Source of the DNA: Chloroflexota bacterium
GTDB taxonomy: Bacteria; Chloroflexota; Anaerolineae; VGOG01
DNA: 64,000 nucleotides
Assembly: GCA_016875995.1 (NCBI GenBank)
Contig: VGOG01000003.1
Location: 7,650-71,649 of the forward strand
Direction: 5' to 3'
The position numbers were made by a program, and so were the translations under genes. The notes under the pieces were generated by a model. That model was given only the letters and a program-made list of their open reading frames with translations. It did no database searches and had not been told where the DNA came from. This document shows, one piece after another, positions 38,444-48,933 of this stretch. Numbering within the stretch: the first letter of the stretch is position 1; every line of letters starts with the position of its first letter.

Positions 38444-39223
38444 GTGTGGGCCGACTTCAACCCAGAGGAAGGCGAGCGGAGCATCATCGAGCGCTTCAAG
38501 TCCTTTGGCGTTTTCACCGTCGTCTTCGCCGGGCTGGTGGGTGTACTCAACCTTTGCGCCTTCGCCACGCTTATCTTCTTCGTCTCCTATCTGACGCTGA
38601 GCGGGCGCAAGGGGCGGGAGGTTCTGGTGGTGGGGGCGGCTTTCACCCTGGGCGTGTTCCTGGCCTACCTGGTGGTGGGGTTGGGCTTCTACAAAGTACT
38701 CGATCTGCTGGGCGACCTGCTGACGACGTTAGGACGCTGGGTGTATGGGCTGACCGCCCTGTTGTGTGTCGGGCTGGCGGTGTTCAGTTTCAACGATTTT
38801 CTCAAGGCCCGGCGGGGCGAGATCGGCGACATGGCGCTGAACCTGCCCCACGGGCTGCGGATGCGCATCAACGCCGTGATTCGCCGGGGGCGCAAATCGC
38901 AGGCCTTCGTCGCAGGAGCCTTCGTCACCGGTATAGTGGTATCGTTCCTGGAGCTGGCCTGCACGGGCCAGGTCTATCTGCCGACCATCGTTTTTGTGAT
39001 CAGCCAGCCGGCCATGCGGGTGCGGGCCTTGCTCTTCCTGGTGCTCTACAACCTGCTCTTCATCCTGCCGCTGGTGGTGGTTTTCATCCTGGTCTACTAC
39101 GGCAGTGCTGGCTCGAAGCAGTTGACTCACTTCCTCCAGCAGCGTGCGGCGACGGTCAAGCTGGGGATGGCGCTGCTCTTCGCAGCGCTGGCGACCTGGC
39201 TGACTGTCGGGATAATCGCATAA
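38444..39223 (+). CDS. DsbD_2/CcdA-like polytopic membrane protein (two conserved Cys: NLCAF, ELACTG)
   Basis: Six TM segments, with Cys in TM1 and TM4. GTG start. The family assignment is tentative. Confidence 0.5.
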   Translation: MWADFNPEEGERSIIERFKSFGVFTVVFAGLVGVLNLCAFATLIFFVSYLTLSGRKGREVLVVGAAFTLGVFLAYLVVGLGFYKVLDLLGDLLTTLGRWVYGLTALLCVGLAVFSFNDFLKARRGEIGDMALNLPHGLRMRINAVIRRGRKSQAFVAGAFVTGIVVSFLELACTGQVYLPTIVFVISQPAMRVRALLFLVLYNLLFILPLVVVFILVYYGSAGSKQLTHFLQQRAATVKLGMALLFAALATWLTVGIIA

Positions 39224-39299
39224 GATCAAGCTCACGCTGAACCTGTTTGTCCTGGCAGCAAAGCAGTGAAAATCCTGGCCAAGCCTATGAAATTGGGTA

Positions 39300-39328
39300 T
39301 TGATTTTTGCCTCAGTCTGTGGTACAAT
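39300..39328 (+). promoter_or_regulatory. sigma70-like promoter (distal) upstream of the island operon
   Basis: TTGATT-17 nt-TACAAT with an extended TG. Confidence 0.45.
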
Positions 39329-39459
39329 AAATAGTAGAGATTGGAGGGTAGCATCGTCGTAGTCCTTGTTCCAGACTAGTTCACCGAGGAGGGTAGTGTG
39401 AATGATTGACAGCCATCTTCTATCCTGGGAGCAATCCTAGTAGGCGGTTGGCTGTTTAT

Positions 39460-39488
39460 TTGTGCCGGCGCCGCCGTTGCGATATAAT
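39460..39488 (+). promoter_or_regulatory. sigma70-like promoter (proximal) upstream of the island operon
   Basis: TTGTGC-17 nt-TATAAT, 154 nt before the methyltransferase ATG. Confidence 0.45.
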
Positions 39489-39641
39489 TGGGGTGAGCTG
39501 ACTTCCACGGCGACACCGGCGCGCTGGAGGCAGGTTGGCAGTAGCATAAACGGAGCAAATACTTCTGTACCGCAGTGGCTCGTTGCCTGTCATCATAACT
39601 ATCGCGCAACAGGGTTCATTCGCTTTTGGGTATCAAGTTTA

Positions 39642-41642
39642 ATGACTAAGCCCGAGAACCTCCAAAACATACTCACAGAGATAGCACAGGATGTTGCCAG
39701 CAAAAGTGACAGCCGAATTGCTGCGGAAGCTTTTGACGTCTACAGACGATGTTTGGAGCCTCTTGCAGAACCTTATGTTCGCAATGGGTTTCTCGATGAG
39801 GACAAGGCACTGCCCCGTTTCTTGTCTGAGACAGCTACCTTACATTTGGTCGTGTCACTTATCCCTCAGTGGTGTGCTGTGCATAATCTCGGCTGCGCAG
39901 AGAGTTTCTGGGATATCCATCCAGAAGCACGTTTTTTCTCATGGTACAAAGTCCCAAAGGCACTTTCATCCGAAATAAGAAACTGGGTTATCGCTCACTC
40001 AGATATTACCGATGTGCTTCAAGCTGTCGCTCTAGTTGCAGAGAGTTCTCTAGCAGGACTCAGACGTCGTTCCCTGGGAGAGTTCTTCACTCCTACTGAG
40101 ATAGCTCAGCACTTGGTGGCTCTCACTGATTATGATCCCCTCACAATGCTTGAATATAAGGTGGCTGATCCAGCTTGTGGGAGCGGAAATCTGTTAGCGG
40201 CTGTGGTTGCAAAGACTGTTCAGGCAGCGCAATCAGGTTTACTAGACCCAGTTACAGCTATCTCCAGCATAAATCGTAATATCTGCGGCTTTGACATACA
40301 GCCTATTGCAATCCTTTTGACTCGACTCCAACTCCTACTTGCGAGTCTGTCTATTCTAAAGTGCTCTGGATTGTCCGACACGAATGTGTACGAAACCTTA
40401 TCGTTTCCTTGTGTGCAATTACGTGATCCGCTCTCAACTCCTGAAGATCTTTGGGACTTGTTTGCGCCATTTGACATTGTAATAGGCAATCCGCCTTTTC
40501 TGAAAGTAACCAAAAAGCAGTTGCCTTTCGTGACACACTATAAGGATATTCTAGCAGGCCAGCCCAATCTCTATCAGTTGTTCCTATGGTGGGCTATACG
40601 GGCAACTCGAGTTGGGGGTCGTGTGACCTTCTTGGTTCCTCAATCCATGAGGGCAGGACAATACCTTCGCAAGCTACGCAGGGAGATTGCCAACACCTGT
40701 GAGATGACTGCTATCACCTGCTTTGTGGATCGTACTGGCGTGTTTGACTCCGTGGATCAGCAGATGATGATCTTAGCCCTAAGAAAGCTAACAGAAGAGT
40801 CGAAGAGGGCTGATGTTGCTGTCCAGATAAGCGCAAATGGGCAATCACTGGCGCGCCGGTCTGTGTTAAAAGTAGGCCAGGATCAGTTGGTTTGGATGCA
40901 AGAAGATAAGCCTATCTGGTGTATCTCAAATGAGATGATGGATTATGCGATTCTGGCCAAAGTGTGTGAGGGACAACCTGTTCTAGGAAGATCGAAGGAG
41001 TTCAAGATCCTCAACGGTGGTTTCGTGTGGAATCAACACAAGGAAAGATTGAGATCAACAGAAAGCGATAACACATTACCACTTATCTCCTCCGCTTCAA
41101 TAGGTGTTCATCAATTTACGTTCCCGCCGTCTGGTAAGCGGGTTTCCCAACGATTGTTTGCAGACGCAACACCCCCAATCGCGGAACCTACTCATAAGAC
41201 TCGACCTATTCTGCTGAAGCGCACTACTCCAAGAAAAGCGAGAGGGCGACGAATTGTCGCAGCCCTGTTGTCCGATGATTTTCTTGCTAAATACCCAACC
41301 TACTTTGTGGAAAATCATGTTAATCTCATTTGTGCAACACAGCGTAGCACAGCAGACCGCCATCTGTCTGGACTTTCCGCTTGGCTCAACTCCAGACTAG
41401 CCAACTTCGTCTTCAGTATGATGAATGGGTCATCTCATCTATCGAAGTTTGAGCTGGAACTCATACCTGCGCCTATGCCCCTGTTGGGAGAATTGAGCGA
41501 TCTTGCCAACACCTTGCTCACTAGCCCCACTGAGAAGCGGCGTGAGATACTGAACCAGATCGATACGAGCGCGTTCAAGTTCTTCGGGCTTTCGCCGGAG
41601 GAATCTCATCGAGTTATGCAAGTAGTCCCGCCTGTTATTTAG
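39642..41642 (+). CDS. N6-adenine DNA methyltransferase, gamma class (Eco57I-type catalytic domain with a TaqI-like C-terminal target-recognition region); no nuclease domain
   Basis: GEFFTP (40077-40094), ADPACGSGNLL (motif I, 40167-40196) and VIGNPPF (motif IV; NPPF 40488-40499). Start set at ATG 39642. The track start 39462 lies in the higher-G+C leader. Confidence 0.88.
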   Translation: MTKPENLQNILTEIAQDVASKSDSRIAAEAFDVYRRCLEPLAEPYVRNGFLDEDKALPRFLSETATLHLVVSLIPQWCAVHNLGCAESFWDIHPEARFFSWYKVPKALSSEIRNWVIAHSDITDVLQAVALVAESSLAGLRRRSLGEFFTPTEIAQHLVALTDYDPLTMLEYKVADPACGSGNLLAAVVAKTVQAAQSGLLDPVTAISSINRNICGFDIQPIAILLTRLQLLLASLSILKCSGLSDTNVYETLSFPCVQLRDPLSTPEDLWDLFAPFDIVIGNPPFLKVTKKQLPFVTHYKDILAGQPNLYQLFLWWAIRATRVGGRVTFLVPQSMRAGQYLRKLRREIANTCEMTAITCFVDRTGVFDSVDQQMMILALRKLTEESKRADVAVQISANGQSLARRSVLKVGQDQLVWMQEDKPIWCISNEMMDYAILAKVCEGQPVLGRSKEFKILNGGFVWNQHKERLRSTESDNTLPLISSASIGVHQFTFPPSGKRVSQRLFADATPPIAEPTHKTRPILLKRTTPRKARGRRIVAALLSDDFLAKYPTYFVENHVNLICATQRSTADRHLSGLSAWLNSRLANFVFSMMNGSSHLSKFELELIPAPMPLLGELSDLANTLLTSPTEKRREILNQIDTSAFKFFGLSPEESHRVMQVVPPVI

Positions 41643-41654
41643 GGAGCGAGCGTT

Positions 41655-43931
41655 ATGGCAAAGAAACCAGGGGATCAAGAAGAGCTCTCTTTCTCTATCA
41701 CCGCTCGAACTGCGCTCTTGTTGGGCCGAGAGAGCATCTCGAGCCCAGTAGTGGCGGTGCTTGAACTCGTCAAGAACGCCTACGACGCTGATGCCAATAA
41801 CGCAACTGTCCGTTTTCGCAAGGCAGGCACATCTGAGGGTACAATCGAGATTTCAGATGATGGCCATGGAATGACTTGGGAGGATATTAAGACCAAATGG
41901 ATGGTCATCGGGACAGACAATAAGCAGAGGGAGCCGATTTCTCCAGGTGGGCGCATCAGAGTCGGTGAAAAGGGTATTGGGCGTTTTGCTTTGGATCGTT
42001 TGGCATCTCAGGTGGTTTTAGAAACGACACCCAAGCTTCCTGACCGTGAGCCAGCAGAACCTACTTATCGCCTGACCATAGATTGGGATAGTTTTGTGAA
42101 CACGAACAAGCCACTGCATGAGATTCCGCAGCCTGCTGAGGTACTGGAGCGTCGAGAAAAGCCAGGAACTCGCTTATTGCTAAGAGGGCTGCGAGATAGC
42201 TGGACACGCAGAGACTATGAGCGATTATACCGCAACTTAGCAGTGTTGGTCCCTCCTTTTGAGTCAAAGCTAAAAGGATTCGGTATCAGATTCGATTGCG
42301 ACGAGGCCAGGGATCTCTCTGGACGTGTTCGCAGTCCGATGGCGAAGGCCGCGCTTTTCAAGATGCGAGCCAGACTAGACGAGGACAACCAGGTAAGAAT
42401 CTCTATCACGACCAGAGACAGCTCACCTGGTGGTAAACTCAGACCCTTCAAACGTTATAAGCGTACGTGGCAGGAGTTGTTTGATATTCCAGAAGATCAG
42501 CCGGTACAGCCACAATGTGGTCCTCTCGAGTTCGAATTCTATTTCTACCTACGTGAAGCACCGGCTCTCGAGGGTACTGGTATTACTCTTGGCCAGTTAA
42601 GAGAGTTTCTTGACATATACGGGGGCGTGCGAATCTATCGGGATAGTTTTCGCGTGAAGCCCTATGGTGACCCAGGTGGGGCTGGAGATTGGCTGGGTCT
42701 AAGTGCACGGAGAGTGCGGCATCCTGCAGGAGTTAGGAGTCGCAAAGCAGGTAAGTGGGCCGTAGGCGAGAACCAAGTAGCTGCCAGTGTCTTCGTTTCT
42801 CGACACACTAATCCCGATCTCAGAGATCAAACGAATCGGGAAGGCTTGTTTGACAATCAAGCCTTTCGCGACATGCGCGGCTTTGTACTGCAGTGCATTG
42901 AGATTTTTGAGACAGATCGCAAACAGTATGAACTCAGCAAACTCCCCGATGAACCTCAAACAGTCGGGGATGCTATGGAGGAGGCAAAAGGAGAGATCCT
43001 CACGGAGGTTGAGAGGCTCGAAGAAGTTCTTGTCTCTCAGCCCGATACTCCTCAGAAGGCTGCCCTTATTGGCGCGCTGGATCAGTTCAAGGAAACCCAG
43101 GTTGAGAGGTTCGAGACACTGGAAGTCGCTTATGAAGCAGAGCGACAAGAGACAGTAAGCAAGCTCCAATTATTGCAGAACCTGGCGACTGTCGGGATCG
43201 CTGTATCTTCAATGGGGCACGAAGTATTGGAGACCAGCCGTCATATCATGAACGCTGTCAAGCGGTTGAAAGAGCGTCTCACTTCGCTGTTGCTCTTCTC
43301 CGATGAAAAAGCCGATCAGTATATGGAACGGCTTCACCGCTATGGTCAGATTATGTATTCGGTGAGCAACTTTGCCCTTGGCCACATAGACCGTGATAAA
43401 CGTCACAGACAGGAGGTCAATGTAGATTCCATAATCCGGAAGTTGTATAAAGAAACGTTGGAAGAGATGTGTTCGACCAATAATGCAGATATCGGCCTCA
43501 AATTAGGAGGAGTGCCCGATATCTACGCTTTCCCCTATGAGGTAGAGTCGATTGTTATTAACTTTGTCACCAACTCACTGGCTGCGTTTCGCCGTGGCCG
43601 TACACCTGTAGCAGACAGACGCATCGAGATTGAGACCCAGTATAATGAGTCAGCTCGCCAGATACAGATAATTGCACGTGATAGTGGACCTGGTATCCCC
43701 AAAGGAGATGCAGAACGTATCTTCAATATCTATTCCACGAAGGTGGATAATGAAGGAAAACCAATAGGAACTGGGCTGGGATTGGTAATCGTTAAAGATA
43801 TCGTCGAGAGCCATAAGGGCACAATTAAAGTTGTAGAGAACGGACGTGTACTGCCTGGAGCCGAGTTTGTTGTGACTTTGCCGGCGCCGCGGAAGCGAGG
43901 TCGAAGAAAGGGAAATGGAGATGGACGATAA
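41655..43931 (+). CDS. dual-GHKL protein: N-terminal MORC/HATPase_c_3-like ATPase, about 300-aa linker, then a DHp plus HATPase_c histidine kinase
   Basis: N-terminal part: LELVKNAYDADA, ISDDGHGMT, GEKGIGRFA. C-terminal part: H-box VSSMGHEVLE (His522, 43218-43220), N-box NFVTNSLAA, G1 DSGPGIP, G2 GTGLGLVIV. No TM segments seen. Confidence 0.85.
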   Translation: MAKKPGDQEELSFSITARTALLLGRESISSPVVAVLELVKNAYDADANNATVRFRKAGTSEGTIEISDDGHGMTWEDIKTKWMVIGTDNKQREPISPGGRIRVGEKGIGRFALDRLASQVVLETTPKLPDREPAEPTYRLTIDWDSFVNTNKPLHEIPQPAEVLERREKPGTRLLLRGLRDSWTRRDYERLYRNLAVLVPPFESKLKGFGIRFDCDEARDLSGRVRSPMAKAALFKMRARLDEDNQVRISITTRDSSPGGKLRPFKRYKRTWQELFDIPEDQPVQPQCGPLEFEFYFYLREAPALEGTGITLGQLREFLDIYGGVRIYRDSFRVKPYGDPGGAGDWLGLSARRVRHPAGVRSRKAGKWAVGENQVAASVFVSRHTNPDLRDQTNREGLFDNQAFRDMRGFVLQCIEIFETDRKQYELSKLPDEPQTVGDAMEEAKGEILTEVERLEEVLVSQPDTPQKAALIGALDQFKETQVERFETLEVAYEAERQETVSKLQLLQNLATVGIAVSSMGHEVLETSRHIMNAVKRLKERLTSLLLFSDEKADQYMERLHRYGQIMYSVSNFALGHIDRDKRHRQEVNVDSIIRKLYKETLEEMCSTNNADIGLKLGGVPDIYAFPYEVESIVINFVTNSLAAFRRGRTPVADRRIEIETQYNESARQIQIIARDSGPGIPKGDAERIFNIYSTKVDNEGKPIGTGLGLVIVKDIVESHKGTIKVVENGRVLPGAEFVVTLPAPRKRGRRKGNGDGR

Positions 43932-44712
43932 GCTCACTATTCTTTTTGTTGAAGACGATCCAGATAGTGCCAGCGATTATAAAGGAGACATTGAGGCACT
44001 GATTGATGTGACGGTGATCGCCATCGCTCCCCCGGCAGATCTTCTGGATCTAACAGCACTGGTCAACGAAGTTAATGCCAGCGCGGTTATCCTTGACGAG
44101 CGGTTGCAACAACTTTCAGATGCCACATATGCGGGGATCGATGCGTTCGATTACTTGCGAAGTGCTTTCCCTGGATTGCCCGTAGATATCTTGACCGCTT
44201 ACCCCCATAGTTCTGAACTAAAACGGCGCGGGCTCCAGATAGATCATCTGATAAGAAAACGGGATCTTGACGATGACGAGGCTTATAAGCAGTCGTACTT
44301 GCAAGAGCTTTACCAAAGAATGAGACGTTATCGGCAAAGAGAGGATGAACGTCACGAGTTCATGGCAGCGTCCGATACAGTCACCAAGGAATTTGTCGAA
44401 AGCCTTGCTCAACTTCATTTCGAAGCCGACGATGGGATAGAGCAGATCATTTGGGTGAGGAGCGGCGATGAGAAGGAGATACGCCTGATTGAGGTCAATC
44501 GGACCGCCCTGCCGACTGAGAGCATTCAAATATTTCGATTTGCGCCTTCTGAGGATGTGCCTTTCCCGACATTCATTGCTGACATCAGACCCACGGAGTG
44601 GGAGCGCATCCAAAGCGGGGATATTCCACTACCTGAAGGCTGGTCTCTCGAAGAAACTCGAGTATTCCGACGCTCTGAGGTACTACCGAAGGGAAGAGAA
44701 GATGTGGGCTAA
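43915..44712 (+). CDS. response-regulator receiver domain protein with an uncharacterised about 120-aa C-terminal domain
   Basis: REC landmarks at CheY-like spacing: ED14D15, D61 (ILDERL; 44095-44097), T94, K115. It overlaps the kinase gene by 17 nt. Confidence 0.8.
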   Translation: MEMDDKLTILFVEDDPDSASDYKGDIEALIDVTVIAIAPPADLLDLTALVNEVNASAVILDERLQQLSDATYAGIDAFDYLRSAFPGLPVDILTAYPHSSELKRRGLQIDHLIRKRDLDDDEAYKQSYLQELYQRMRRYRQREDERHEFMAASDTVTKEFVESLAQLHFEADDGIEQIIWVRSGDEKEIRLIEVNRTALPTESIQIFRFAPSEDVPFPTFIADIRPTEWERIQSGDIPLPEGWSLEETRVFRRSEVLPKGREDVG

Positions 44713-45193
44713 TGCGTATCTTGAGCAAGCGCGTTCAGATTGGGATACTCGTAGGTTAATTGTGGAGAACGCATGTGCGGCTTGTCATGAACTCCACTAC
44801 CTGCAGATGACGACTGAAAAACTTGGCAAGGCAGTGCTGTTAAGAAGTGGGGCCGAGCTGGATGATCTGAGTACAACACACAAGACATTTATTCGCTTTC
44901 TACGAGTTGTTGCTAGAAACTCTGGTCTTCGACGAGAGTTTCAATTCAACGCTCGCCAACTGCAAGCGTATGTGACGGGAATCCTGCCTGTTGCCGATCA
45001 AATCGAACGGCTGGTTCCTGCACTTGCTCATGATGGCCCAAACGCTGAGTATCCCTGGGAGACTCCTTCTGGAGAAGTGCAGGTTCCCGCATCTTATGCT
45101 TTCCCCGTGGCCGAAGAACTGAGAGGACCCCAAGGACGCAAGCTGTTAAGCCTGATCTCTGTTATCCTCGATAGATTTGACGCCTTCTTTTGA
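44702..45193 (+). CDS. small helical protein, HEPN-like (tentative)
   Basis: AYLEQARSDWDTRRLI...LHYLQMTTEKLGKAVLL...THKTFIRFL resembles HEPN helices 1-3. A candidate Rx6H motif RLVPALAH lies at 45008-45031. It overlaps the REC gene by 11 nt. Confidence 0.45.
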   Translation: MWANAYLEQARSDWDTRRLIVENACAACHELHYLQMTTEKLGKAVLLRSGAELDDLSTTHKTFIRFLRVVARNSGLRREFQFNARQLQAYVTGILPVADQIERLVPALAHDGPNAEYPWETPSGEVQVPASYAFPVAEELRGPQGRKLLSLISVILDRFDAFF

Positions 45194-45458
45194 TATGATA
45201 GCCCGATTTGAACCGCTGAACTTGGACGTTATCTGTGACCTCAGCCCCAACCCAATGTAACCTTCCGCTTCGCTCAGGGCAAACCCTGTCGAACCATGAC
45301 TAAATGGCGCACCTGCGCCATCAAGTATAGGTGCAAAAACTCCTCAGTTGATAGCCTGTCCTCGACTGTTCCTCCTAATCGACCATTCACCACCTAATCC
45401 TCGACTCCTGCAGCCTGTTCTGCTATTGCAGGGCGCACAGCGGCACCACAGTGTTGTT

Positions 45459-45487
45459 TGCACGCAAAGTCAGACCGTAGTATACTT
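45459..45487 (+). promoter_or_regulatory. sigma70-like promoter (copy 1 of a duplicated 37-nt cassette)
   Basis: TTGCAC-17 nt-TATACT within tgtttgcacgcaaagtcagaccgtagtatacttggtg. Confidence 0.5.
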
Positions 45488-45727
45488 GGTGCGGGGGAAA
45501 AGTCGGCTACCGCTTTTCGAGCAGAAGACCGCAGGAGGTAGCGCAGACGGATGAATCTCTTTCGGCCCTTTGGGTGAATAGCCAGCGTTTGCGTGCTAGC
45601 TCTGAGACGCTGGCGACACGGGAATTTCGGAACTAGCAATGCTGAACTGATTTCTTCAGTGGGCAGGCGCATCCAATTCCAGATGCACCAGCCTGAAATA
45701 GAGCAAATCTTCTCAAGGAGGTGCTAT

Positions 45728-47160: not shown

Positions 47161-47196
47161 GGCCAGCACCTCAGTTCTGCTGGCCCTCTTTTGTTT
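47161..47196 (+). terminator. rho-independent terminator
   Basis: ggccagca...tgctggcc stem followed by ctcttttgttt. Confidence 0.65.
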
Positions 47197-47223
47197 GCAC
47201 GCAACGTCGGACTGTAGTATACT
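47195..47223 (+). promoter_or_regulatory. sigma70-like promoter (copy 2 of the duplicated cassette)
   Basis: TTGCAC-17 nt-TATACT within tgtttgcacgcaacgtcggactgtagtatacttggtg. Confidence 0.5.
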
Positions 47224-47243
47224 TGGTGTGATTAGGTGCGAAT

Positions 47244-48089
47244 ATGGGAAACTCGAATTGGAACAACGAAGAAGTGAATGTTGAAGTGAGCTACCTGAGC
47301 ATGGCGGCTAGTATCCACCGTGTGACAGGGCCCGCCATCCGTTCCGCGATCCGCGCTCTCCAACTCCCGTCGGGGAGTCGGGGACTCGATGCGGGGTGTG
47401 GAATCGGCACCCACACGCTGTGGCTGGCGGAAGCCGTATCGCCCGATGGACACGTCACCGGTGTAGATATTTCGCCCGAATGTCTGGCCCGCGCAGAGGA
47501 GATCGTGGGGTCGAGCGAACTGGCGGAAGCGGTTTCCTTCCAGTATGGAGACATGAATGATCTCCCCTTTGAGGACGATGCGTTTGATTGGGTGTGGAAT
47601 GTGGATACTTTGTGGCCTGTCGGTGGCAAGGATCCTCGGCCATTGGTGAATGAGCTTGTACGAGTGGTGAAGCCTGGAGGGACTCTCGCCATCCTTTTCT
47701 GGTCTTCCCAGAGATTGCTTCCGGGGTATCCCTTGCTGGAGGCCCGGCTGAACGCCACATTAGCGGCGAGCTTCCCCTACACCGACGATACGAAGCCGGA
47801 GTTGCATATTCTGCGTGCACTGGGATGGCTTCAGGAGGCGGGCCTGGGGGAGCCCCGGGTTCGCACTTTCGTGGCCGATGTTCAAGCCCCGCTAGATGGC
47901 GCAGCGCGGAACGCTTTGACGGCAAGCTTTCAGATGTTGTGGGGGAAAGCAGAATCAGAGGTAACACCAGATGATTGGGCGGAGTTTCGACGGCTCTGTC
48001 AGCCGGAGTCGCCGGATTTCATTCTGAATCTTCCCGACTACTATGCCTTCATCACGTATTCGCTTTTCTATGGCAAAGTACCCAAGTAG
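47244..48089 (+). CDS. class I SAM-dependent methyltransferase
   Basis: GLDAGCGIGTHTLWLAE...VKPGGTLAILFW. Confidence 0.85.
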   Translation: MGNSNWNNEEVNVEVSYLSMAASIHRVTGPAIRSAIRALQLPSGSRGLDAGCGIGTHTLWLAEAVSPDGHVTGVDISPECLARAEEIVGSSELAEAVSFQYGDMNDLPFEDDAFDWVWNVDTLWPVGGKDPRPLVNELVRVVKPGGTLAILFWSSQRLLPGYPLLEARLNATLAASFPYTDDTKPELHILRALGWLQEAGLGEPRVRTFVADVQAPLDGAARNALTASFQMLWGKAESEVTPDDWAEFRRLCQPESPDFILNLPDYYAFITYSLFYGKVPK

Positions 48090-48138
48090 GCCGTTCGGAT
48101 TGATAGCGACATGGGCTGGGTGCCCAGGGGGAGGAAAG

Positions 48139-48933
48139 ATGATAGAAGATGCATCGAGAGATAGTGGAGGGATCAGGAAAGGGTGGGACGAGCGTGCTAA
48201 CAGATATGATGCATGGTACGGGACTTTTCAGGGCGCTGTTGAACACCAGGTGGATTGGGAGCTGCTGAGAGCATATCTCCCCCAGAACAGGGATGTAAAC
48301 ATCCTGGATGCTGCTGGCGGAACCGGGAGGATCACACTCCCCTTGACGAAGATGGGATACTCGGTGACTCTATGTGATATCTCTCCCGCAATGCTCAACG
48401 TGGCAAGGCAGAAATTGCTGAGAGAGGGGGTGTTAGACAAAGTAGAGATACTGGAGTGTGATGTTCGCAAACTTCGCTTTGCCGACGAGAGTTTCGATTT
48501 TGTCCTTTGCTGGAATGGTGGGATCGAAGCCGCCAAAGAGCTCATACGGGTGACGAGGAAGGGAGGAAGGATTTCGATATTCCTGGTGAACAAGTGGGCC
48601 GCAGCCATCGGGGGTTTCTCCAGAGATTCCACCTCCGCCCTCGCATTGATCAAGTCCACGCCAGGTTATGTGGAAGATGAAGGAGAGAGATACAGGGCCG
48701 TCAGCGCAGAAGAAGCTAGAGAGTTGTTTAAGGCTGGGGGGATCAGAGTCATGGACATCTATGCTGTTTGCGGCTGGATGGACGTGCTCCGTATACCGCA
48801 AGAAGTTCAGAGGTCTCGTGATTGGGATGAGCAATTCTTCAGCCAGGCAGTTGAGATGGTGTTAAGACTGGCTAAAGAGCCTTCTGTCAGAGGAATGTCA
48901 AGGCATTTGGTTCTATATGGAGAGAAGATGTAG
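48139..48933 (+). CDS. class I SAM-dependent methyltransferase
   Basis: ILDAAGGTGRITLPL...TRKGGRISIF. RBS GGAGG. The track start 48043 is an upstream extension. Confidence 0.85.
   Translation: MIEDASRDSGGIRKGWDERANRYDAWYGTFQGAVEHQVDWELLRAYLPQNRDVNILDAAGGTGRITLPLTKMGYSVTLCDISPAMLNVARQKLLREGVLDKVEILECDVRKLRFADESFDFVLCWNGGIEAAKELIRVTRKGGRISIFLVNKWAAAIGGFSRDSTSALALIKSTPGYVEDEGERYRAVSAEEARELFKAGGIRVMDIYAVCGWMDVLRIPQEVQRSRDWDEQFFSQAVEMVLRLAKEPSVRGMSRHLVLYGEKM

What the first reader, a model, noticed from the sequence alone, without database searches (positions are those of the whole stretch)
41655..43931. Unusual single polypeptide with two GHKL ATPase folds: MORC-like module and sensor-less histidine kinase
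- The N-terminal about 130 aa carry the Bergerat-fold motifs of the HATPase_c_3/MORC/MutL type (ELVKNAYDA, DDGHGM, GEKGIGRF).
- The C-terminal about 240 aa form a DHp plus CA histidine kinase.
- There is no TM, PAS, GAF or TPR input domain. The MORC-like module and the roughly 300-aa region after it therefore appear to be the input.
- MORC-type ATPases clamp or compact DNA on ATP binding. Coupling such a module to autophosphorylation would be a new way to turn a DNA-state signal into a phosphorelay.
Basis: partly seen in the sequence, partly recalled or inferred. Interest (0 to 1): 0.75.

Follow-up and report, generated by a model that had tools for sequence, protein, structure and literature searches.

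The report
Kinase sensor of mobile defence cassette
The gene does encode a MORC/Hsp90-like ATPase fused to a histidine kinase, but this fusion is a widespread, already published sensor of methylase-linked anti-phage cassettes; the new part here is that the usual nuclease is replaced by an uncharacterised two-protein module wired to the receiver protein.

Summary
ORF 41655-43931 (758 aa) has an N-terminal HATPase_c_3 domain (E 8e-21) and a C-terminal DHp plus HATPase_c kinase core (E 2e-23). The ATP-binding residues of both modules and His522 are conserved across phyla, and there is no TM or known sensor domain.

It is not unusual. Full-length relatives occur in at least 592 species genomes. 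The sensor module alone finds 1014 clusters (50% identity) at E<=1e-30.

The gene order DNA methylase, GHKL-kinase, receiver protein, effector is conserved. This architecture was described by Bellieny-Rabelo et al. 2021. A methylase/kinase/receiver/HNH cassette, Ambrosia, was shown to defend against phage in a 2025 preprint.

In the window the cassette is a 6.4-kb low-GC island (39236-45596) of four overlapping or near-abutting genes.

The new feature is the output. The effector slot holds HNH in 34 and a metallo-beta-lactamase-fold protein in 19 of 79 related genomes. Here it holds a 163-aa protein ("B") with a confident predicted fold that matches nothing in PDB or BFVD. The receiver protein carries a C-terminal domain ("A") that elsewhere is a separate small gene always directly upstream of B.

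Verdict: a new variant of a known kind, of moderate interest.

The parts
39236..45596 (+). Mobile island carrying the whole cassette
   Evidence: One collinear blastn match to L007 (uncultured Anaerolineae MAG), 88% identity over 6369 nt, with unrelated flanks. GC is 0.497 against 0.617 and 0.608 in the flanks.
39300..39328 (+). Promoter-like site upstream of the methylase gene (TTGATT, 17 nt, TG-TACAAT)
   Evidence: Consensus scan only. No XRE/C-protein ORF lies between 39236 and 39641.
39642..41642 (+). N6-adenine DNA methyltransferase (gamma class, Eco57I/Alw26I-like, NPPF motif). The mechanical ORF starts at 39462; gene callers on identical contigs give both 726 aa (start 39462; L003, L004, L006) and 666 aa (start 39642; L005).
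   Evidence: Pfam Eco57I 9e-19 and N6_Mtase 9e-16; PADLOC MTase_II 1e-68.
41655..43931 (+). GHKL-ATPase/histidine-kinase fusion (the finding), 758 aa, soluble
41745..42044 (+). First GHKL ATP-binding domain (HATPase_c_3, aa 31-130)
   Evidence: Pfam E 8e-21. E37, N41, D68, G70, G72, G104, K106, G107 and G109 are conserved.
42045..42854 (+). Middle (transducer-like) domain, aa 131-400, with the conserved block IYRDxFRVKPYG..DWL (aa 327-347) and R395
   Evidence: Invariant P336, G338, W346, L347, R395 and near-invariant K335. Together with the GHKL domain it aligns to Hsp90/TRAP1 N+M and MORC2/3 ATPase modules.
42858..43388 (+). Long coiled-coil linker and DHp helices (aa 402-578); phospho-acceptor His522 at 43218-43220
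   Evidence: AF2 helices 402-429, 437-460, 466-545 and 551-578. H522 is invariant in 80 sequences, is followed by E523, and lies 118 residues before the N-box N640.
43410..43889 (+). Kinase catalytic (CA) domain, aa 586-745
   Evidence: Pfam HATPase_c 2e-23; phmmer to HK853 1.5e-10.
43915..44319 (+). Receiver (REC) domain of the 265-aa downstream protein; phospho-acceptor Asp61 at 44095-44097. The gene overlaps the kinase stop by 17 nt.
   Evidence: D14, D61 and T94 are invariant and K115 is near-invariant. Pfam Response_reg 1.6e-3 on the window protein alone. The profile of 76 homologues hits solved response regulators at 4e-14.
44395..44679 (+). 'A' domain fused to the receiver (aa 161-255)
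   Evidence: 41-60% identical (pairwise E 1e-25 to 5e-45) to small proteins, or to the C-terminal domain of one 193-aa protein, encoded directly upstream of B homologues elsewhere. No Pfam hit.
44702..45193 (+). 'B' protein, 163 aa, candidate effector in the slot held by HNH or MBL nucleases in related cassettes. The gene overlaps the REC-A stop by 11 nt.
   Evidence: 224 homologues. 17 invariant residues including H32, E39, K40, H60, E102, N114, E116. AF2 pLDDT 96. No Foldseek match in PDB or BFVD. No Pfam, NCBIfam, PHROG or PADLOC hit.
45454..45491 (+). 38-nt promoter-like element at the right end of the island, repeated at 47191-47228

Best explanation
The 758-aa protein is the sensor kinase of a horizontally mobile, methylase-linked defence cassette. 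It belongs to the class described bioinformatically as 'paraMORC-derived two-component-like systems' and validated experimentally in one form as Ambrosia.

The four genes overlap or nearly abut (a 12-nt gap, then overlaps of 17 and 11 nt): N6-adenine methylase, GHKL-ATPase/kinase, REC-A fusion, and B.

Proposed mechanism:
- The N-terminal GHKL plus middle-domain module is an active ATPase. Like MORC, MutL and Hsp90, it is expected to dimerise on ATP binding. [Inferred.]
- A cue linked to infection or foreign DNA alters this cycle. [Inferred; the cue is unknown.]
- The change travels down the roughly 120-residue coiled coil into the DHp and switches autophosphorylation of His522 by the C-terminal CA domain. 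[The residues are shown; the activity is inferred.]
- The phosphoryl group passes to Asp61 of the adjacent receiver. [Inferred from adjacency, conservation, and the D60A result in Ambrosia.]
- In this clade the receiver is fused to domain A, the obligate partner of protein B. The output is therefore most likely direct, post-translational release or activation of B, which replaces the nuclease of related cassettes. [Inferred from the fusion and the slot replacement.]
- The methylase marks host DNA. [Role inferred.]
For: Domains and conserved catalytic residues. Structure and fold matches.

Family size:
- More than 120 full-length relatives in the first protein search.
- At least 592 species genomes, including archaea and candidate-phyla (CPR) bacteria.
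- 1014 clusters (50% identity) for the sensor module at E<=1e-30, nearly all 680-830 aa long.

Conserved context:
- A receiver-like gene lies directly downstream in 78 of 79 genomes.
- The next gene is HNH in 34 and MBL-fold in 19.
- Of 82 immediately flanking same-strand ORFs sampled from related loci, up to 32 match adenine-methylase models (Eco57I/N6_Mtase) and 7 match C5 methylase.
- Annotated plasmid examples.

Island.

Literature: PMC8011034, Ambrosia preprint, paraMORC.

A-B pairing and the REC-A fusion. A/B inside a type 1 BREX locus.
Against: - No biochemical or genetic data exist for this locus.
- The Ambrosia authors favour transcriptional control by the receiver protein. Their REC has a wHTH, and reporters were induced on infection.
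- The window cassette has neither a recognisable nuclease nor an XRE regulator.
- The functions of A and B are unknown, so B could be a regulator rather than an effector.
- The Foldseek output does not give aligned ranges, so assigning the Hsp90/MORC hits to the N-terminal half rests on alignment lengths.
Confidence: 0.62

Rival explanations
1. The components are the same, but the output is transcriptional. Phosphorylated REC-A binds DNA and switches on the cassette (or only B) during infection, as proposed for Ambrosia AbrC. A would then be a DNA-binding, antitoxin-like domain.
For: The Ambrosia preprint reports strong induction of reporters placed in the cluster on infection, a wHTH in AbrC, and loss of defence with D60A. 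Many antitoxins of two-gene modules are DNA-binding autoregulators (general knowledge).
Against: A has no detectable HTH, wHTH or other DNA-binding signature. A is always paired with B, including when inserted inside a BREX operon, which points to a protein partner. The four genes overlap or nearly abut with no internal promoter needed.
Confidence: 0.22
2. This is a conventional ATP-dependent restriction-modification enzyme complex. The GHKL/middle module works mechanically on DNA together with a nuclease, as proposed for paraMORCs and BbrUII/HgiDII-type enzymes. The kinase half is a vestigial or structural dimerisation module.
For: The N-terminal domain resembles BbrUII/HgiDII-family restriction enzymes and PADLOC REase_II models. 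paraMORCs sit in R-M operons.
Against: H522 and all the N, G1 and G2 box residues are invariant or nearly so across phyla. The receiver's D61 is invariant too, which implies selection on phosphotransfer. AbrC D60A abolishes Ambrosia defence.
Confidence: 0.08
3. This is a housekeeping cytoplasmic two-component system that regulates host genes in response to nucleotide or ATP levels. It lies next to an orphan methylase by chance.
For: Databases annotate it only as 'sensor histidine kinase'. Bellieny-Rabelo et al. speculated about NTP sensing.
Against: The gene order methylase-kinase-receiver-nuclease is conserved across phyla and on plasmids. The cassette is a low-GC island shared at 88% identity with another genome with different flanks. 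The distribution is patchy and includes decayed copies.
Confidence: 0.05

Closest known systems
Ambrosia anti-phage system (AbrR-AbrA-AbrB-AbrC-AbrD), bioRxiv 10.1101/2025.09.30.679545
   Same: Both have an N6-adenine methylase, a 'sensor histidine kinase/Hsp90-like ATPase' protein and a REC protein with an essential Asp (D60 there, D61 here), in one tight cluster. Relatives of the window kinase in Pseudomonas (L010, L035) have exactly methylase-kinase-REC-HNH.
   Different: The window has no HNH endonuclease and no XRE (AbrR) gene. The REC protein carries the A domain instead of a wHTH, and a 163-aa protein of unknown fold fills the nuclease slot. The host is an Anaerolineae-like Chloroflexota bacterium, whereas Ambrosia was reported in Gammaproteobacteria. 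Sequence identity to AbrA-D could not be measured.
HEF_HK / Response_reg_2 'two-component-like' elements associated with R-M systems (Bellieny-Rabelo, Pretorius & Moleleki 2021, PMC8011034)
   Same: The 'group 1' architecture is identical: HATPase_c_3 + DHp with an H-E motif + HATPase_c, soluble, with an adjacent receiver-like gene and neighbouring methylase and HNH genes. Derivation from paraMORCs was proposed there.
   Different: Pfam PF19191 and PF19192 do not match the window proteins or any of 64 kinases and 76 receivers sampled. The published set is mainly Proteobacteria with C5 methylases, whereas this one has an adenine methylase. The published work is purely computational.
Prokaryotic MORC/paraMORC GHKL ATPases of R-M systems (Iyer, Abhiman & Aravind 2008, PMC2292703); eukaryotic MORC2/MORC3
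   Same: An N-terminal GHKL domain with intact motifs plus a middle domain, linked to methylases and HNH nucleases. The structure model aligns with the MORC3 (6o1e) and MORC2 (9cdj) ATPase modules.
   Different: The module is fused to a histidine-kinase core, and the output is phosphotransfer rather than a fused or neighbouring helicase or nuclease. Hsp90/TRAP1 score as well as MORC, so 'MORC-like' is no more specific than 'GHKL + middle domain'.
GHKL-nuclease fusions: Shedu type I-D/paraMORC3 (VcSduA, PMC12137116) and BbrUII/HgiDII-family restriction enzymes (NCBIfam NF050001)
   Same: The same kind of N-terminal GHKL ATPase acts as the regulatory or sensing head of a defence protein. VcSduA needs its ATPase Glu (E27A abolishes defence). 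NF050001 matches aa 30-196.
   Different: In those proteins the ATPase is fused directly to the nuclease. Here a kinase-receiver relay sits between the ATPase and the effector.

Membership tests
Histidine kinase (HisKA-type DHp + CA) | Conserved phospho-acceptor His on DHp helix 1, followed by an acidic residue | tested here: met
   H522-E523. H522 is invariant in 80 sequences and lies on AF2 helix 466-545, 118 residues before N640. However, no Pfam HisKA-family model matches. HisKA matches 2 of 64 relatives.
Histidine kinase (HisKA-type DHp + CA) | CA domain with N, G1 and G2 boxes | tested here: met
   HATPase_c E 2e-23. N636, N640, D676, G678, G680, G705, G707 and G709 are conserved. It aligns to HK853 and, by Foldseek, to ZraS, HK853 and CpxA.
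Histidine kinase (HisKA-type DHp + CA) | Autophosphorylation and phosphotransfer to a cognate receiver | not testable with these tools
   Needs biochemistry. A receiver gene with invariant D61 overlaps the kinase stop codon.
MORC / paraMORC GHKL ATPases | N-terminal GHKL domain with intact ATP-binding motifs I-III | tested here: met
   HATPase_c_3 E 8e-21. E37, N41, D68, G70, G72, G104, K106, G107 and G109 are conserved.
MORC / paraMORC GHKL ATPases | S5-fold transducer domain after the GHKL domain, with a conserved basic residue reaching the ATP site | tested here: inconclusive
   Foldseek aligns about 480 columns to the MORC3/MORC2 and Hsp90/TRAP1 N+M modules, and K335 is near-invariant. Aligned ranges and the position of K335 relative to the ATP site could not be inspected.
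MORC / paraMORC GHKL ATPases | MORC-specific signature motif that separates MORC proper from paraMORCs (Iyer 2008) | not tested
   No MORC reference alignment was at hand. The protein is therefore called paraMORC-like or GHKL + middle domain, not MORC.
HEF_HK / Response_reg_2 two-component-like system (PMC8011034) | Architecture HATPase_c_3 + DHp + HATPase_c, soluble | tested here: met
HEF_HK / Response_reg_2 two-component-like system (PMC8011034) | Match to Pfam HEF_HK (PF19191) in the kinase and Response_reg_2 (PF19192) in the neighbour | tested here: not met
   No hit at E<=10 on the DHp fragment or the REC fragment. None of 64 kinases or 76 receivers matches at E<=1e-3. None matches at E<=1 in plasmid or Pseudomonas examples.
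HEF_HK / Response_reg_2 two-component-like system (PMC8011034) | Adjacent receiver-like gene, with DNA methylase and R-M nuclease genes in the neighbourhood | tested here: met
   Window: methylase upstream and REC downstream. Relatives. The window itself has no recognisable nuclease.
Ambrosia defence system | N6-adenine methylase + HK/Hsp90-like ATPase + REC with essential Asp in one cluster | tested here: met
   compared with the description.
Ambrosia defence system | HNH (type IV-like) endonuclease AbrD | tested here: not met
   No HNH in the window. Gene 44702-45193 has no Pfam hit and does not align with the HNH proteins of related loci.
Ambrosia defence system | HipB-like XRE regulator AbrR | tested here: not met
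   No plausible ORF between 39236 and 39641. The ORF upstream of the island (38444-39223) is a membrane protein outside the shared block.
Ambrosia defence system | Sequence homology to AbrA-D above the authors' HMM thresholds; anti-phage activity | not testable with these tools
   The sequences and HMMs of the preprint are not held here, and activity needs experiments.

The most novel reading that the evidence does not exclude
In this clade the phosphorelay does not end in a transcription factor or a standard nuclease. It ends in a receiver fused to the partner (A) of a protein with a previously unseen fold (B). A-B would be a new toxin/antitoxin-like defence effector pair that also circulates alone and inside BREX loci. 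The fusion would show that GHKL-kinase cassettes control their effectors post-translationally, contrary to the transcriptional model proposed for Ambrosia.
Probability: 0.3. Interest if true: 0.65.

Novelty: new variant of a known kind. Interest (0 to 1): 0.42.

Why it matters
How GHKL-kinase cassettes such as Ambrosia sense infection and switch on their effectors is still open. This locus offers a natural experiment. It has the same sensor kinase and methylase, but the receiver is covalently joined to the partner of a small effector of unknown fold. That makes a direct, phosphorylation-controlled protein switch testable with four small soluble proteins. It also flags the A/B pair as a candidate new defence module, found alone, in defence islands and inside a BREX operon. 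For genome annotation, it shows that hundreds of genes labelled 'sensor histidine kinase' are parts of restriction-like defence cassettes.

Tried and rejected
- Gene 4 as a HEPN RNase. The window sequence has RLVPALAH (Rx6H), but the Arg is not conserved in 40 homologues, and the confident model matches no HEPN or any other structure. Rejected.
- Gene 4 as a diverged HNH. It does not align with the HNH proteins of L001/L002 and has no Cys/His HNH motif. Rejected.
- An XRE/C-protein gene upstream, as in Ambrosia. None found.
- Membership in Pfam HEF_HK / Response_reg_2. No matches at any threshold tried. A bona fide PF19191 protein could not be fetched for a direct comparison. The E. coli genome search with an enterobacterial homologue found nothing, and the paper's supplements are not held.
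- Sequence-profile searches of A8 (REC-A) and A7 (B) against PDB sequences gave only chance-level hits.
- PHROGs and PADLOC gave nothing for A or B.
- No tRNA genes were found anywhere in the window, and no convincing terminal direct or inverted repeats. No integrase was noticed among the flanking genes with precomputed annotation.
- LM5578_1851 (the NCBIfam name of the weak receiver hit) led to no relevant literature.
Full report
**1. The observation**

The ORF 41655-43931 (+) exists as described and encodes 758 aa.
- Pfam finds HATPase_c_3 at aa 31-130 (E 8e-21) and HATPase_c at aa 630-745 (E 2e-23), and nothing else.
- Fragments scanned at E<=10 add no PAS, GAF, TPR or HisKA-type model.
- The protein has no hydrophobic segment (maximum KD19 of 1.38).
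- NCBIfam aligns aa 495-747 with AtoS/PhoR-type kinases. It aligns aa 30-196 with the GHKL head of BbrUII/HgiDII-family restriction enzymes. PADLOC gives the same picture.

The AlphaFold2 model built on 34 homologues (pLDDT 77) shows:
- a GHKL domain;
- a beta-rich middle domain up to about aa 400;
- about 120 residues of long helices;
- a DHp hairpin carrying His522;
- a CA domain.

Foldseek matches the C-terminal 250 residues to ZraS, HK853 and CpxA. It matches about 480 columns to Hsp90/TRAP1 N+M domains and to the MORC3 and MORC2 ATPase modules.

In alignments of 34, 64 and 80 homologues, the catalytic residues of both ATP sites and His522 are invariant or nearly so.

**2. How common it is**

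The first protein search returned more than 120 full-length relatives (34-89% identity) with the same two Pfam domains.

They span Chloroflexota, Proteobacteria, Bacteroidota, Cyanobacteria, Planctomycetota, Bacillota, candidate-phyla (CPR) bacteria and Nitrosopumilus archaea.

The sensor half alone (aa 1-470) finds 1014 clusters (50% identity) at E<=1e-30. Nearly all top hits are 680-830 aa long, which is the size of the fusion. Sixty-five plasmid records carry it at >=80% coverage.

**3. Context**

In the window the gene is the second of four genes that overlap or nearly abut:
- an Eco57I/Alw26I-like N6-adenine methylase (39642-41642);
- the kinase;
- a 265-aa protein (43915-44712) that overlaps the kinase stop;
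- a 163-aa protein (44702-45193) that overlaps the previous stop.

The block 39236-45596 is collinear at 88% nucleotide identity with a contig of another Anaerolineae MAG (L007) whose flanks are unrelated. Its GC content is 0.497 against about 0.61 around it. It is a horizontally moving island. No tRNA gene was found in the window, and no integrase was noticed in the flanks.

Gene maps of 79 related genomes gave the following.
- In 78 of them a gene follows the kinase directly on the same strand.
- These proteins share one invariant Asp, D61 of the window protein.
- 20 of 76 reach Pfam Response_reg.
- Their profile hits 178 solved response regulators, best E 4e-14. They are receivers.
- The next gene is an HNH endonuclease in 34 genomes and a metallo-beta-lactamase-fold protein in 19.
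- Most of the remaining 26 have a longer receiver fusion followed by another small protein.
- Of 82 immediately flanking same-strand ORFs sampled from related loci, up to 32 match Eco57I/N6_Mtase models, 7 match C5 methylase and 2 match N6_N4 methylase.

Annotated plasmids of Bacteroides, Bacillus and Campylobacter show the same order. Several copies are broken (L035, L064 and a Klebsiella plasmid).

**4. What is already known**

Bellieny-Rabelo et al. 2021 (PMC8011034) described the architecture HATPase_c_3 + DHp (their HEF_HK) + HATPase_c. They reported 91.6% linkage to a receiver-like gene and enrichment of methylases and type II nucleases. They proposed derivation from the paraMORCs of Iyer et al. 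2008 and suggested that the first ATPase acts as the sensor.

A 2025 preprint (10.1101/2025.09.30.679545) validated 'Ambrosia', which consists of an XRE regulator, an N6 methylase, a 'sensor histidine kinase/Hsp90-like ATPase', a REC protein and an HNH nuclease. According to the preprint:
- all components are needed for defence;
- the REC D60A mutant is dead;
- expression rises on infection;
- methylation alone does not protect phage.

Two caveats apply. Membership in those named families is therefore by architecture and context only.

**5. What is different here**

The window has no HNH, no MBL-fold protein and no XRE gene.

The 163-aa protein B belongs to a family of 224 homologues with 17 invariant residues, including H32, Y33, Q35, E39, K40, K43, H60, E102, N114, E116, Y117 and W119. 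It has no hit in Pfam, NCBIfam, PHROGs or PADLOC. Its model is very confident (pLDDT 96, pTM 0.91), yet Foldseek finds nothing in PDB (best E 4.3) or BFVD (best E 1.4).

I looked up six B homologues that lie outside kinase cassettes. In all six, the gene directly upstream encodes a homologue of the C-terminal 95 residues of the window receiver protein (A). Identity is 41-60% and pairwise E values range from 1e-25 to 5e-45. A is a stand-alone protein of 98-112 aa in five cases and has an N-terminal extension in one. The contexts were:
- one pair inside a type 1 BREX operon, between BrxC and PglX;
- one in a DUF499/DUF1156/reverse-transcriptase island;
- one next to AbiEi;
- three alone.

Only 45 REC-A fusions were found, against 224 B proteins. 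Only one of the 79 related genomes (L007) has this variant. The window cassette has thus captured a mobile two-gene module and fused its first gene to the receiver.

**6. Mechanism**

Shown:
- two intact ATP sites;
- a conserved His and Asp;
- operon structure;
- mobility;
- replacement in the effector slot;
- the A-B pairing and the REC-A fusion.

Inferred:
- ATP-driven dimerisation of the GHKL/middle module responds to an infection-linked cue. This is by analogy with MORC, MutL and Hsp90.
- The coiled coil passes this change to the DHp.
- His522~P goes to Asp61.
- Phosphorylation changes how A holds B, releasing or activating B as the effector.
- The methylase marks self DNA.

The main rival is the transcriptional model proposed for Ambrosia, in which A would bind DNA. 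I rate the protein-switch version higher because A always travels with B and shows no DNA-binding signature.

**7. Verdict**

The finding is real but describes a known and widespread kind of protein. The locus is a new variant of that kind because of its A/B output. Interest is moderate (0.42). The most novel reading still open is a new effector fold controlled post-translationally by a receiver fusion. I give it a probability of about 0.3.

Noticed in passing
window 45454-45491 and 47191-47228: A 38-nt direct repeat (3 mismatches; none expected by chance) with a sigma-70-like layout (TTTGCA, 18 nt, TATACT). Each copy lies upstream of a + strand gene: the amidohydrolase at 45593 and the SAM-methyltransferase at 47244. 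The first copy lies inside the block shared with L007.
   Followed up: partly
L090 6708-7489 (also L091-L097): The A/B two-gene module (A 98-112 aa, B 162-170 aa) circulates independently of the kinase cassette. It occurs inside a type 1 BREX operon between BrxC and PglX, in a DUF499/DUF1156/RT/helicase island, next to AbiEi/PLD/caspase-like genes, and alone. It looks like an undescribed accessory defence or toxin-antitoxin-like pair.
   Followed up: partly
L035 1692-3976; L064 6986-9201; plasmid NZ_CP063918.1 129249-131504: The GHKL-kinase gene is broken into two or three ORFs in Pseudomonas aegrilactucae, a Chloroflexia MAG and a Klebsiella variicola plasmid. This suggests recurrent inactivation of the cassette.
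   Followed up: no
L002 347-5554 and 12200-18316: In Aggregatilinea lenta the cassette sits between a RecA-like/ImuB/DnaE2-type mutagenesis gene set and phage tail-like genes (Collar, Sipho_Gp37), so it is probably at a prophage border.
   Followed up: no
L037, L044, L049, L054, L067-L069, L071-L073, L076, L078-L080, L083, L085 (gene after the kinase): A third cassette type has a long receiver protein (340-414 aa, with no Pfam domain beyond REC), often followed by a 230-250-aa protein. Neither is related to A or B. These are further unexplored output modules of the same sensor kinase.
   Followed up: no
window 47244-48933: Two tandem class I SAM methyltransferases score 1e-20 against the PADLOC mad2 model. 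The match covers only the generic methyltransferase fold, and they lie outside the island, so they are probably unrelated to defence.
   Followed up: no
window 38444-39223: A 259-aa multi-pass membrane protein (maximum KD19 of 2.94) with no Pfam, NCBIfam or PHROG hit ends 13 nt before the left edge of the island.
   Followed up: no
L001 13935-13992 (gene runs off the locus): In the Chloroflexi MAG that carries an HNH-type cassette, an 873-aa Eco57I methylase fused to BsuBI/PstI restriction domains lies 8 kb downstream. That region is therefore a defence island.
   Followed up: no
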